From IMG/VR virus record IMGVR_UViG_2636415500_000006: a stretch of 4,041 bases of DNA; one strand, 5' to 3'. This DNA is from a virus. Lineage: Duplodnaviria; Heunggongvirae; Uroviricota; Caudoviricetes; Straboviridae. Positions 1-4,041 of the stretch are shown here, piece by piece (positions within the stretch are counted from its first letter, which is position 1; every line of letters starts with the position of its first letter). The position numbers and the translations under genes are program-made. Below the pieces are notes generated by a model that searched no databases, was not told the DNA's origin, and saw only the letters and a program-made list of their open reading frames with translations.

Positions 1-518
<518 letters not shown>

Positions 519-525
519 TCAGGGA

Positions 526-541
526 CTTGTTCGCACCTTCC
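526..541. repeat. IS5 16-bp terminal inverted repeat (cttgttcgcaccttcc; complement ggaaggtgcgaacaag)
   Basis: Exact 16-mer at 526-541 matches the IS5 end sequence as I recall it. It lies immediately upstream (on the minus strand) of the transposase start, as expected for an IS end. The partner repeat is outside the window. Confidence 0.85.
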
Positions 542-731
542 CAAGGGGAAAACGCACGACGTGCTGACCGGAAGTGATGACGGTCGCCACAGCAACACGT
601 CTCTGGCGTGGGGAGCTGGCGTGCAGTTTAACCCGACCGAATCCGTGGCCATTGATATTGCTTATGAAGGCCCCGGCAGTGGCGACTGGCGCACTGACGG
701 TTTCATCGTGGGTGTCGGTTATAAGTTCTGA
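542..731 (+). pseudogene. lomR: 3' fragment of a lom-family (Ail/Lom/OmpX-type) outer-membrane beta-barrel gene, truncated by IS5; last 62 codons plus stop
   Basis: In-frame translation from 543 reads KGKTHDVLTGSDDGRHSNTSLAWGAGVQFNPTESVAIDIAYEGPGSGDWRTDGFIVGVGYKF then tga at 729-731. This matches the C-terminus of lambda Lom as I recall it, including a C-terminal aromatic residue typical of outer-membrane beta-barrels. The signal peptide and N-terminal strands are absent; IS5 sequence lies directly upstream. Confidence 0.88.
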
Positions 732-757
732 TTAGCCAGGTAACACAGTGTTATGAC

Positions 758-784
758 AGCCCGCCGGTTCAGGCGGGCTTTTTT
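758..784 (+). terminator. Rho-independent terminator between the lom fragment and stf
   Basis: Perfect 7-bp GC-rich stem gcccgcc (759-765) / ggcgggc (772-778), 6-nt loop ggttca, followed by a run of six T (779-784). It sits 27 nt after the lom stop codon. Confidence 0.7.
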
Positions 785-785
785 G

Positions 786-793
786 TGGGGTGA
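786..793 (+). promoter_or_regulatory. Putative ribosome-binding site for the tail fibre gene
   Basis: Purine-rich ggggtga ends 2 nt before the ATG at 796, which is rather close spacing. The call is weak and positional only. Confidence 0.4.
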
Positions 794-795
794 AT

Positions 796-3700
796 ATGGC
801 AGTAAAGATTTCAGGTGTACTGAAAGACGGCACAGGAAAACCGGTACAGAACTGCACAATCCAGCTGAAAGCAAAACGTAACAGCACCACGGTGGTGGTG
901 AACACGCTGGCCTCAGAAAATCCGGATGAAGCCGGGCGTTACAGCATGGACGTTGAGTACGGTCAGTACAGCGTTATTCTGTTGGTGGAAGGATTCCCGC
1001 CGTCACATGCCGGGACCATTACCGTGTATGAAGATTCTCAACCCGGTACGCTGAATGATTTTCTCGGTGCCATGACGGAGGATGATGCCCGTCCGGAGGC
1101 ACTGCGCCGTTTTGAACTGATGGTGGAAGAGGTGGCGCGTAACGCGTCCGCGGTGGCACAGAACACGGCAGCCGCGAAGAAGTCAGCCAGTGATGCCAGC
1201 ACATCAGCCCGTGAGGCGGCAACCCATGCGGCTGATGCTGCGGACTCAGCACGCGCAGCCAGCACGTCAGCCGGACAGGCCGCGTCGTCGGCTCAGTCAG
1301 CGTCTTCCAGCGCAGGAACGGCATCAACAAAGGCCACTGAAGCATCAAAAAGTGCTGCCGCTGCAGAGTCCTCAAAAAGCGCGGCGGCCACCAGTGCCGG
1401 TGCGGCGAAAACGTCAGAAACGAATGCTTCAGCGTCACTACAATCAGCAGCCACATCTGCATCCACCGCGACCACGAAGGCATCAGAAGCTGCGACCTCG
1501 GCCCGGGATGCGGCGGCCTCAAAAGAAGCGGCAAAATCATCAGAAACGAACGCATCATCAAGCGCCAGTAGTGCAGCTTCCTCGGCAACGGCGGCAGGAA
1601 ATTCCGCGAAGGCGGCAAAAACGTCCGAGACGAACGCCAGGTCTTCTGAAACGGCAGCGGGACAGAGCGCCTCGGCTGCGGCAGGCTCAAAAACAGCGGC
1701 TGCGTCGTCTGCCAGTGCAGCGTCAACAAGTGCCGGGCAGGCCTCAGCCAGTGCCACCGCCGCCGGAAAATCGGCAGAAAGCGCCGCATCGTCTGCTTCA
1801 ACAGCCACAACGAAGGCTGGCGAAGCCACTGAACAGGCCAGCGCAGCAGCGAGGTCTGCTTCCGCAGCGAAGACATCCGAAACGAACGCGAAAGCGTCGG
1901 AAACAAGCGCAGAATCCTCAAAAACGGCTGCCGCATCGTCAGCCAGTTCGGCGGCGTCATCGGCATCATCGGCGTCTGCTTCAAAAGATGAGGCGACCAG
2001 ACAAGCGTCAGCAGCGAAGAGCAGCGCCACGACGGCATCCACGAAGGCGACAGAGGCTGCTGGCAGTGCGACGGCGGCAGCTCAGAGCAAAAGTACGGCG
2101 GAATCCGCGGCAACGCGCGCCGAGACAGCAGCTAAACGGGCAGAGGATATTGCATCCGCCGTGGCGCTTGAGGATGCAAGTACGACGAAAAAGGGGATAG
2201 TACAGCTCAGCAGTGCGACCAACAGTACGTCTGAAACGCTGGCGGCAACGCCAAAGGCAGTAAAATCAGCCTATGACAATGCAGAGAAACGTCTGCAGAA
2301 AGACCAGAACGGCGCTGATATACCCGATAAGGGATGCTTCCTGAACAACATTAACGCGGTCAGTAAAACAGACTTTGCTGATAAGCGTGGTATGCGTTAT
2401 GTGCGGGTTAACGCTCCTGCAGGTGCAACATCTGGAAAATATTACCCTGTTGTTGTTATGCGTTCTGCTGGCTCAGTAAGCGAACTGGCATCAAGAGTCA
2501 TTATCACCACGGCAACGCGAACCGCAGGCGATCCGATGAATAACTGCGAGTTTAACGGATTTGTTATGCCTGGTGGCTGGACTGACAGGGGGCGTTATGC
2601 TTATGGCATGTTCTGGCAATATCAAAACAATGAACGAGCCATTCACTCAATAATGATGAGTAATAAGGGCGATGATTTGCGCTCTGTGTTCTATGTTGAT
2701 GGCGCTGCTTTCCCTGTTTTTGCGTTTATTGAAGATGGCCTGTCAATATCCGCACCTGGTGCTGATCTCGTTGTTAATGATACGACCTATAAGTTTGGGG
2801 CAACAAATCCGGCGACTGAATGTATCGCGGCGGACGTTATCCTTGATTTTAAGAGTGGGCGTGGTTTTTATGAGTCTCATTCGTTAATCGTTAACGATAA
2901 CTTGTCGTGCAAAAAACTTTTTGCCACAGACGAAATTGTAGCGCGTGGTGGTAATCAGATTCGAATGATAGGTGGGGAGTATGGTGCATTATGGCGTAAT
3001 GATGGCGCTAAAACTTACCTGCTGCTTACCAATCAAGGTGATGTTTATGGTGGCTGGAATACATTAAGACCGTTTGCTATTGATAACGCAACCGGCGAAC
3101 TGGTTATTGGAACCAAACTGTCCGCAAGTCTGAACGGTAATGCATTAACAGCAACAAAGCTGCAAACGCCAAGACGGGTTTCTGGTGTTGAGTTTGATGG
3201 TTCCAAAGATATTACTTTAACCGCCGCGCATGTGGCTGCTTTTGCCAGAAGGGCAACGGATACATATGCCGATGCGGATGGTGGCGTTCCATGGAATGCC
3301 GAATCTGGCGCTTACAATGTCACCCGCTCTGGCGACAGCTATATTCTGGTTAACTTCTATACCGGAGTCGGAAGTTGCCGGACCCTGCAGATGAAGGCGC
3401 ATTACAGAAATGGTGGTCTGTTCTACCGTTCTTCAAGAGACGGTTATGGTTTTGAGGAAGACTGGGCAGAAGTTTATACCTCGAAAAATCTTCCACCAGA
3501 AAGCTACCCAGTCGGCGCACCAATCCCGTGGCCATCAGATACCGTTCCGTCTGGTTATGCCCTGATGCAGGGGCAGGCTTTTGACAAATCTGCTTACCCG
3601 AAACTTGCAGCCGCTTATCCGTCAGGCGTGATCCCTGATATGCGTGGCTGGACGATTAAGGGCAAACCTGCCAGTGGTCGGGCCGTATTGTCTCAGGAAC

Positions 3701-4041
3701 AGGACGGCATTAAATCGCATACCCACAGCGCCAGCGCATCCAGTACAGATTTGGGGACGAAAACCACATCGTCGTTTGATTACGGCACTAAATCCACGAA
3801 TAACACCGGGGCACATACACACAGTGTGAGCGGCTCTACAAACTCGGCTGGAGCACACACACACTCACTAGCCAACGTGAACACGGCTAGTGCTAACTCC
3901 GGTGCTGGTAGTGCATCAACAAGATTGTCTGTTGTGCATAATCAAAACTATGCAACATCATCTGCTGGCGCACATACCCACTCACTGTCCGGCACTGCTG
4001 CAAGCGCAGGTGCACACGCGCATACTGTCGGTATTGGTGCT
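796..4041 (+). CDS. stfR: Side tail fibre protein (lambda Stf homolog, Rac StfR-type); first 1082 codons, 3' end beyond the window
   Basis: ATG at 796 opens a frame that runs to the window end with no stop (3246 nt = 1082 codons). No complete frame-1 ORF is in the track, consistent with this. The N-terminus [26 protein letters not shown]... and the C-terminal stretch GAPIPWPSD...[32 protein letters not shown] match lambda Stf as I recall it. An Ala/Ser-rich stalk and His-x-His repeats are typical of tail fibres. Confidence 0.93.
1141..2190 (+). repeat. 42-nt (14-codon) periodic Ala/Ser/Thr-rich repeat tract within the tail fibre gene (fibre shaft)
   Basis: The motif K-(T/S)-S-E-T-N-A begins at 1408, 1534, 1618 and 1870, with spacings of 126, 84 and 252 nt, all multiples of 42. 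T-T-K-A occurs at 1471-1482 and 1807-1818 (K codons 336 nt apart, 8 x 42). Chunking the protein in 14-residue blocks from [14 protein letters not shown] keeps these motifs in register. Confidence 0.75.

What the first reader, a model, noticed from the sequence alone, without database searches (positions are those of the whole stretch)
3712..4041. Cluster of His-x-His repeats in the C-terminal tail-fibre region
In-frame H-T-H or H-A-H motifs occur at 3718-3726 (KSHTHSAS), 3814-3822 (GAHTHSVSG), 3856-3864 (GAHTHSLAN), 3973-3981 (GAHTHSLSG) and 4015-4023 (GAHAHTVG), mostly within a repeated G-A-H-x-H-(S/T) unit. Similar His-x-His repeats in phage fibre tips (T4 gp37 is the case I recall) are thought to coordinate metal ions along the trimer axis. 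The repeat series continues past the window end, so the count here is a minimum.
Basis: partly seen in the sequence, partly recalled or inferred. Interest (0 to 1): 0.4.

Follow-up and report, generated by a model that had tools for sequence, protein, structure and literature searches.

The report
Iron-binding His-x-His repeats in StfR tail fibre
The His-x-His repeats are real, but they are the already well-described metal-binding motifs of the receptor-binding needle of a lambda/T4-type phage tail fibre, here the stfR gene of the defective Rac prophage of E. coli K-12, so the finding is correct and ordinary.

Summary
Five in-frame HxH motifs lie at exactly the stated coordinates. The complete gene, recovered from identical E. 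coli K-12 records, adds two more, giving seven in the last 146 residues. Shuffling the protein gives 0.37 on average and never more than 5 in 100,000 trials. The gene is stfR, the side tail fibre gene of the defective Rac prophage. From base 525 onward the window is 100% identical to K-12.

StfR residues 902-1120 match the crystallised receptor-binding tip of T4 gp37 (PDB 2XGF) at E=6e-89 and 68% identity. All seven StfR HxH motifs align one-to-one with the seven gp37 HxH motifs. In gp37 each motif, contributed by three chains, coordinates one iron ion on the trimer axis.

Among 87 distinct homologues the HxH histidines are 92% conserved, against 70% for other positions. The one histidine outside an HxH motif, in the variable tip, is not conserved. 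Pfam recognises the unit as PF03335 (Phage_fiber repeat).

The feature is already known, and its interest is low. Metal binding by StfR itself is inferred by homology and was not shown. A monomer AlphaFold2 model was uninformative, and no trimer modelling was available.

The parts
796..4041 (+). stfR coding sequence, the side tail fibre gene of the Rac prophage. Residues 1-1082 of 1120 are in the window. The gene would end at window-equivalent position 4158.
   Evidence: The annotated CDS in K-12 records is identical to the window from base 525 onward, and the translation matches. Pfam hits are PF08400, PF21446, PF07484 and PF03335. PHROG tail fibre families also match.
796..1197 (+). N-terminal tail-attachment domain, residues 1-134.
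   Evidence: PF08400 phage_tail_N, E=1e-71. Residues 1-352 are 81% identical to lambda orf-401. In Ur-lambda this part forms the collar on the tail (PMC12617516).
2782..3081 (+). Shaft segment resembling the T4 gp34 C-terminal trimerisation domain, residues 663-762.
   Evidence: PF21446, E=3.4e-27.
3514..3657 (+). Collar domain, residues 907-954, immediately before the needle.
   Evidence: PF07484 Collar, E=1.6e-11. It aligns with the gp37 collar in 2XGF.
3658..4041 (+). Needle domain with its tip, from residue 955 to the window end. The descending strand continues for 38 residues beyond the window.
   Evidence: 2XGF match at E=6.4e-89. Six PF03335 Phage_fiber units, 47.4 bits against a cut-off of 20.
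3718..3726 (+). HxH motif 1 (H975, H977). Aligns with gp37 H883/H885.
   Evidence: Conserved in 98-99% of homologues.
3814..3822 (+). HxH motif 2 (H1007, H1009). Aligns with gp37 H915/H917.
   Evidence: Conserved in 99% of homologues.
3856..3864 (+). HxH motif 3 (H1021, H1023), next to the tip. Aligns with gp37 H929/H931, whose alanine substitutions are lethal in T4.
   Evidence: and PMC6957217. Conserved in about 60% of homologues. It is absent where the tip is replaced by a different module.
3865..3972 (+). Variable tip segment, residues 1024-1059. This is the presumed receptor-contacting part. It contains the lone, non-conserved H1048.
   Evidence: Column identity falls to 0-20% among homologues. 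This is the only indel-rich and divergent stretch against gp37 and lambda Stf. The equivalent gp37 residues were mapped as receptor-binding (PMC6957217).
3973..3981 (+). HxH motif 4 (H1060, H1062). Aligns with gp37 H966/H968.
   Evidence: Conserved in 83-93% of homologues.
4015..4023 (+). HxH motif 5 (H1074, H1076). Aligns with gp37 H980/H982.
   Evidence: Conserved in 98% of homologues.
543..731 (+). Context: lomR', the C-terminal remnant of the Lom outer-membrane protein gene, cut by the IS element.
   Evidence: Annotated as a pseudogene in K-12 records. The translation ends ...DWRTDGFIVGVGYKF.
1..541 (-). Context: one end of an IS5 element (the start of its transposase gene plus the terminal inverted repeat) that interrupts lomR.
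   Evidence: The terminal repeat GGAAGGTGCGAACAAG lies at 526-541. The segment is 99.5% identical to IS5 copies. Annotation.

Best explanation
The region encodes the needle domain at the far end of StfR, the side tail fibre of the Rac lambdoid prophage. This domain is a close homologue of the receptor-binding tip of T4 gp37 and of lambda Stf.

Three StfR chains are expected to intertwine. Each chain runs from the collar out to the tip and back. Each HxH motif then contributes two histidines per chain, six in all, to an octahedral metal site on the three-fold axis. The metal is iron in T4. The full protein should therefore carry seven collinear metal ions per trimer, five of them encoded in the window.

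The metal sites act as internal rivets. They hold a thin, glycine/serine/threonine-rich needle, which has little hydrophobic core, in register. The divergent segment between motifs 3 and 4 (residues 1024-1059) forms the tip that contacts the host receptor. Folding is expected to need the downstream chaperone TfaR.

What is shown here: the motifs, their statistical excess, the homology, the one-to-one alignment with the gp37 iron ligands, and their conservation. What is inferred by homology: trimer geometry, metal identity and occupancy, and the role of the tip.
For: - Motifs and frame.
- Excess over chance: (0.37 expected, 7 observed, none of 100,000 shuffles reached 7).
- Homology: 2XGF E=6.4e-89 over StfR 902-1120. 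67.8% identity to gp37 812-1026 and 71.8% to lambda orf-314.
- The seven motifs are column-for-column equivalent to those of gp37.
- Literature: seven irons along the gp37 needle, coordinated by three copies of each His. H929 and H931 are essential (PMC6957217). HxH gives octahedral iron sites (PMC11705849).
- Conservation: HxH His 92% against 70% for other positions across 87 distinct homologues. The lone H1048 is conserved in 1%.
- PF03335 is above its cut-off.
- Chaperone gene: tfaR lies immediately downstream. It is 94% identical to lambda Tfa and 30% to T4 gp38.
- Coupled indels on the outgoing and returning strands fit a hairpin needle.
Against: - There is no direct evidence for StfR itself. 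No metal analysis or solved structure exists for it.
- The only model obtainable here, an AF2 monomer, was low-confidence (pLDDT 50, below 50 through the needle). It says nothing about axis clustering.
- The primary structure paper (Bartual et al. 2010) was not held in the library. The iron assignment rests on secondary citations and on my own recollection of that paper.
- Rac is a decayed prophage with a truncated tape-measure gene and an IS-interrupted lom. StfR may therefore never be assembled into a particle in this host.
Confidence: 0.9

Rival explanations
1. The HxH clusters are a by-product of composition or of a simple low-complexity repeat and have no specific role.
For: The surrounding sequence is rich in Gly, Ser, Thr and Ala and is visibly repetitive. 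The DNA repeat units are recognisable.
Against: No shuffle in 100,000 reached the observed count. The histidines are the best-conserved residues of the repeat, while the x position and the flanks vary. The single His outside a motif is not conserved. The equivalent His residues in T4 are essential.
Confidence: 0.01
2. The histidine-bound iron is functional bait rather than scaffolding. Under this 'Ferrojan horse' idea, fibre-bound iron is presented to host siderophore or iron receptors, or the histidines themselves contact the receptor.
For: The hypothesis exists in the literature and cites lambda and T4 HxH motifs (PMC11705849; 32 papers mention it).
Against: In gp37 the irons are described as lying within the needle core, coordinated by all three chains, so they are not exposed. 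The known receptors of the homologues are OmpC and LPS, not iron transporters. Specificity maps to the variable tip, whereas the HxH positions stay constant among fibres with different tips.
Confidence: 0.03
3. The sites bind a metal other than iron, such as Zn, Ni or Co, or stay unoccupied in StfR. In that case the histidines stabilise the needle by stacking or hydrogen bonding alone.
For: Six-histidine octahedral sites are not strictly iron-specific, and nothing measured here addresses metal identity.
Against: StfR is 68% identical to a structure in which the sites are reported as iron. Motif spacing is identical.
Confidence: 0.06

Closest known systems
T4 gp37 long tail fibre receptor-binding tip (PDB 2XGF; collar, needle and head domains with seven Fe sites)
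   Same: Direct homologue over StfR 902-1120 (E=6.4e-89, 68% identity). It has the same seven HxH motifs in the same columns and with the same spacings of 32, 14, [tip], 14, 9 and 9 residues. The C-terminus ...VKNIAFNYIVRLA is identical. A dedicated downstream chaperone gene is present in both.
   Different: The tip segment between motifs 3 and 4 is unrelated in sequence and three residues longer in StfR. Everything N-terminal of residue about 900 differs. StfR is a siphophage side fibre with a lambda-type attachment domain, not the distal half of a myophage long fibre. Its chaperone TfaR is only 30% identical to gp38.
Lambda (Ur-lambda) side tail fibre Stf (orf-401 plus orf-314) with Tfa
   Same: Same gene order: lom, stf, tfa. 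The N-terminus is 81% identical and the C-terminal 217 residues 72% identical. TfaR is 94% identical to Tfa. The side fibres are trimers that bind OmpC and speed up adsorption (PMC12617516).
   Different: Lambda has eight HxH motifs. It carries an extra 9-residue unit (IGAHQHPVV) and a matching 10-residue insertion on the outgoing strand, and its tip is longer and different. The central shaft of StfR, with its Gp34_trimer-like and Mu S-like pieces, has no lambda counterpart. The receptor of StfR is not established.
Pfam PF03335 Phage_fiber (14-residue tail fibre repeat)
   Same: Six units are recognised, at 47.4 bits against a cut-off of 20. Nearly all the closer homologues carry it.
   Different: It is a sequence-repeat definition only and says nothing about the metal. 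The first motif (KSHTHSAS) lies outside the G-x-H-x-H unit.
HxH iron site of central tail spikes (P2 gpV, Mu gp45, Sf14 gp47)
   Same: Same chemistry: three HxH motifs form one octahedral iron site on a trimer axis that stiffens a thin beta-structure (PMC11821841).
   Different: A single site in an unrelated membrane-piercing protein. No sequence relationship to StfR was found in the Pfam or PDB searches.

Membership tests
gp37/Stf-type receptor-binding needle (2XGF fold) | Significant sequence homology spanning collar, needle and tip through to the C-terminus. | tested here: met
   phmmer against PDB gives 2xgf_A at E=6.4e-89, StfR 902-1120 against chain residues 27-242. BLASTP gives 67.8% identity over 227 columns.
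gp37/Stf-type receptor-binding needle (2XGF fold) | HxH motifs at the positions of the iron-coordinating histidines. | tested here: met
   All seven of seven motifs align with gp37 H883/885, 915/917, 929/931, 966/968, 980/982, 989/991 and 998/1000. They are conserved among homologues.
gp37/Stf-type receptor-binding needle (2XGF fold) | Homotrimer with metal ions on the three-fold axis. | not testable with these tools
   Only monomer prediction is offered, and it gave pLDDT 50. No coordinates or metal data were available. This feature is inferred from 68% identity to 2XGF.
gp37/Stf-type receptor-binding needle (2XGF fold) | Dedicated tail fibre assembly chaperone gene immediately downstream. 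| tested here: met
   tfaR overlaps the stfR stop codon in the K-12 records, outside the window. It is 94% identical to lambda Tfa and 30% to T4 gp38, E=8e-18.
Lambda-type side tail fibre (Stf) | N-terminal prophage tail fibre domain (PF08400) and a position after lom in a lambdoid late operon. | tested here: met
   PF08400 at E=1e-71. The order lomR', stfR, tfaR is seen, compared with lambda lom, orf-401/314, orf-194.
Pfam PF03335 Phage_fiber repeat | Score above Pfam's gathering threshold. | tested here: met
   28.9 bits for the full protein and 47.4 bits for the C-terminal 170 residues, against a cut-off of 20. Six stretches matched.

The most novel reading that the evidence does not exclude
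StfR stays intact in a decayed prophage because it serves as a ready-made receptor-binding module that live lambdoid phages pick up by recombination. Its distinct tip (residues 1024-1059) would then target a receptor or OmpC variant different from those of lambda Stf and T4 gp37.

A related point concerns needle length. The needle appears to change in quantised steps of one metal site, through coupled insertions of about 10 residues on the outgoing strand and one 9-residue HxH unit on the returning strand.
Probability: 0.3. Interest if true: 0.3.

Novelty: already known. Interest (0 to 1): 0.08.

Why it matters
It matters little as a discovery. The gene is a named E. coli K-12 gene, its C-terminus is a close homologue of a solved structure, and the HxH-iron arrangement was published in 2010 and is recorded in Pfam.

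The practical value is in annotation. The five motifs in the window, seven in the gene, mark the needle domain and bracket the variable tip that decides host range. That tip is the part people swap when re-targeting lambda-derived particles.

Tried and rejected
- **AlphaFold2 model.** I ran AF2 on P0001, a database fragment whose needle and tip are identical to StfR, with a 56-sequence alignment. The result was mean pLDDT 50 and pTM 0.24, with the needle below 50. That is expected for one chain of an intertwined trimer. I therefore ran no fold search and draw no structural conclusion from it.
- **Trimer modelling.** The tools do not offer it.
- **Primary 2XGF paper.** PMC2996694 is not held. 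One paper search failed because the phrase was too long.
- **Tandem Repeats Finder.** It found nothing in the window. The repeat units are too divergent and too irregularly spaced at the DNA level. The repeat finder saw only 60-85% similar units of 25-30 nt.
- **Other long ORFs.** Those on the minus strand and in the +2 frame across 1019-2200 were considered and dismissed. They are products of the Ala/Ser-rich GCN-type codon bias of the stfR shaft.
- **Chance or low-complexity origin.** Rejected.
- **Source of the 1.2% difference from K-12.** I checked whether it touched the finding. It does not. All differences lie at 18-524, inside the IS element.

Full report
**What the window is.** A megablast of the whole window against complete E. 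coli genomes finds it in K-12-type strains at 98.8-98.9% identity. A base-by-base comparison shows that all 48-55 differences lie at positions 18-524, and from 525 to 4041 the window is identical to the K-12 records. The annotation of those records places the window in the defective Rac prophage.

- Positions 1-541 are the end of an IS5 element. Its terminal repeat GGAAGGTGCGAACAAG lies at 526-541.
- Positions 543-731 are lomR', a remnant of the lom gene.
- stfR starts at 796 and runs off the window. It would end at 4158.

The window therefore holds residues 1-1082 of the 1120-residue StfR protein. The chaperone gene tfaR and the invertase gene pinR follow in the genome.

**Checking the observation.** The full gene adds GAHTHSVA (residues 1083-1085) and GSHGHTIT (residues 1092-1094). 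That makes seven motifs within the last 146 residues, and they hold 14 of the protein's 21 histidines. Shuffling the residues 100,000 times gave a mean of 0.37 HxH and a maximum of 5. For the in-window part the mean was 0.25 and the maximum 4, against 5 observed. The DNA copies of the unit are only 60-85% alike, and Tandem Repeats Finder reports nothing. The repeat is therefore old and maintained at the protein level.

**What it is.** Pfam finds four families along StfR:

- PF08400, prophage tail fibre N-terminal domain, residues 1-134.
- PF21446, a T4 gp34-like trimerisation domain, residues 663-762.
- PF07484, collar, residues 907-954.
- PF03335, the 14-residue Phage_fiber repeat, in six units. 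The C-terminal 170 residues score 47.4 bits against a cut-off of 20.

PHROG tail fibre families agree. A search of the sequences of all solved structures gives the crystallised receptor-binding tip of T4 gp37 (2XGF) at E=6.4e-89 over StfR 902-1120. BLASTP identity is 67.8% to gp37 812-1026 and 71.8% to lambda orf-314, the C-terminal part of Stf.

In a three-way alignment the seven StfR motifs fall in the same columns as gp37 H883/885, 915/917, 929/931, 966/968, 980/982, 989/991 and 998/1000. The last 13 residues, VKNIAFNYIVRLA, are identical in all three proteins. The only strongly divergent, indel-bearing stretch lies between motifs 3 and 4, at StfR 1024-1059.

**How it most likely works.** Papers read here state the following.

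- The gp37 needle carries seven iron atoms along its length.
- Each iron is coordinated by the same histidine from all three chains.
- Alanine substitution of H929 or H931 abolishes plaque formation.
- Residues of the tip between those motifs contact LPS and OmpC (PMC6957217).
- A second paper summarises the HxH motifs as octahedral iron sites and notes their conservation in lambda (PMC11705849).

From my own recollection of Bartual et al. 2010 (not held in the library), each chain runs out to the tip and back. Motifs on the outgoing and returning strands then stack along one axis. Transferring this at 68% identity, an StfR trimer should hold seven axial metal ions that rivet a thin needle with little hydrophobic core. 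Residues 1024-1059 would form the receptor-contacting tip.

TfaR is 94% identical to lambda Tfa and 30% to T4 gp38. It is the expected folding chaperone.

Ur-lambda side fibres are trimers that bind OmpC and speed up adsorption. Their distal part is described as structurally homologous to gp37 (PMC12617516).

The geometry, the metal identity and the receptor of StfR are all inferences. None was measured here.

One database search with the C-terminal 170 residues returned 681 proteins at E<=1e-5, and the best 120 were listed. Of these, 108 covered the region, giving 87 distinct aligned rows. In that alignment the 14 HxH histidines are 92% conserved on average, against 70% for all other positions. 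Motifs 1, 2, 5, 6 and 7 are at 98-100%. The lone H1048 in the tip is conserved in 1%.

Motif 3, and to a lesser extent motif 4, are missing in homologues whose tip is a different module. The count per protein ranges from 5 to 8. Among deposited phage genomes, 552 records encode a match. They include T4-like myophages, lambdoid phages and Felixounaviruses. One phage, Escherichia phage Turner, has an identical 170-residue tip.

**A structural-evolution detail.** Lambda Stf has eight motifs. It carries one extra 9-residue unit (IGAHQHPVV) on the returning strand and an extra 10 residues (SFDYGTKTTG) between motifs 1 and 2 on the outgoing strand. Among the database homologues the two insertions always go together.

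| Spacing, motif 1 to motif 2 | Length of the terminal run of 9-spaced motifs | Proteins |
|---|---|---|
| 42 residues | 4 | 11 of 11 |
| 32 residues | 3 | 56 of 59 |

 This fits a hairpin needle that must lengthen on both strands at once. The sequences are related, though, so it may reflect a single event.

**What failed.** A monomer AlphaFold2 model of a fragment with the identical tip (P0001, with a 56-sequence alignment) had pLDDT 50, and below 50 through the needle. I did no fold search with it. Trimer modelling is not available with these tools.

**Comparison and verdict.** StfR's C-terminus is a member of the gp37/Stf needle family by every sequence-level criterion tested. It is also a member of the Pfam PF03335 repeat family. 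The same HxH-iron chemistry occurs, without homology, in the central spikes of P2, Mu and Sf14 (PMC11821841).

The gene is a named K-12 gene, and the motif and its role have been known since 2010. The finding is already known and of low interest.

Noticed in passing
window 1-541: The IS element interrupting lomR is a canonical IS5 copy, 99.5% identical to IS5 elsewhere. The K-12 records with the same insertion site carry a variant annotated as ISKpn26-like. All 48-55 differences between the window and those records fall at 18-524. The source strain therefore has a different, or gene-converted, IS copy at the same site.
   Followed up: partly
window 543-731: lomR' is only the C-terminal 62 codons of a Lom/Ail outer-membrane protein gene, cut off by the IS5 end at 541. 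The tape-measure gene upstream in the genome is also truncated. Rac cannot build a tail, yet stfR and tfaR remain intact.
   Followed up: partly
window 1019-2200, both strands: Long ORFs overlap the Ala/Ser/Thr-rich shaft of stfR: 364 aa and 249 aa on the minus strand and 336 aa in the +2 frame. They look like by-products of the GCN-rich codon usage. Lambda's record annotates an equivalent antisense 'orf206b' inside orf-401. The recurring AAKTSETNA-like peptide is not a DNA tandem repeat.
   Followed up: partly
window 2352-3180 (StfR residues about 520-795): StfR is a mosaic. Residues 1-352 resemble lambda orf-401 (81%) and residues 904-1120 resemble orf-314 (72%). The middle has a T4 gp34-like trimerisation domain, and residues 852-908 match phage Mu fibre protein S (8ju3, E=2.7e-14). 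Phage Turner's fibre gene matches the window at 543-2351 (95.7%) and at 3181-4041 (97.3%), but not in between.
   Followed up: partly
window 3727-3813, and beyond the window end (StfR residues 978-1006 and 1074-1094): Needle length appears to change by coupled insertions. A 10-residue insertion between HxH 1 and 2 always co-occurs with one extra 9-residue HxH unit near the C-terminus, in 11 of 11 homologues and in lambda Stf. This has not been corrected for shared ancestry.
   Followed up: partly
window 3937-3939 (H1048): One histidine lies in the variable tip outside any HxH motif. It is conserved in only 1% of homologues, so it is not part of the metal-binding series.
   Followed up: yes
L004 (Escherichia phage Turner, PP925837) 2154-6776: An isolated 48-kb phage carries a fibre whose last 170 residues are identical to StfR. 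A tfa gene and a DNA invertase gene follow, in the same order as tfaR and pinR in Rac. This fits exchange of this module between live phages and the K-12 prophage remnant, as shown experimentally for lambda and Rac (PMC3945230).
   Followed up: partly
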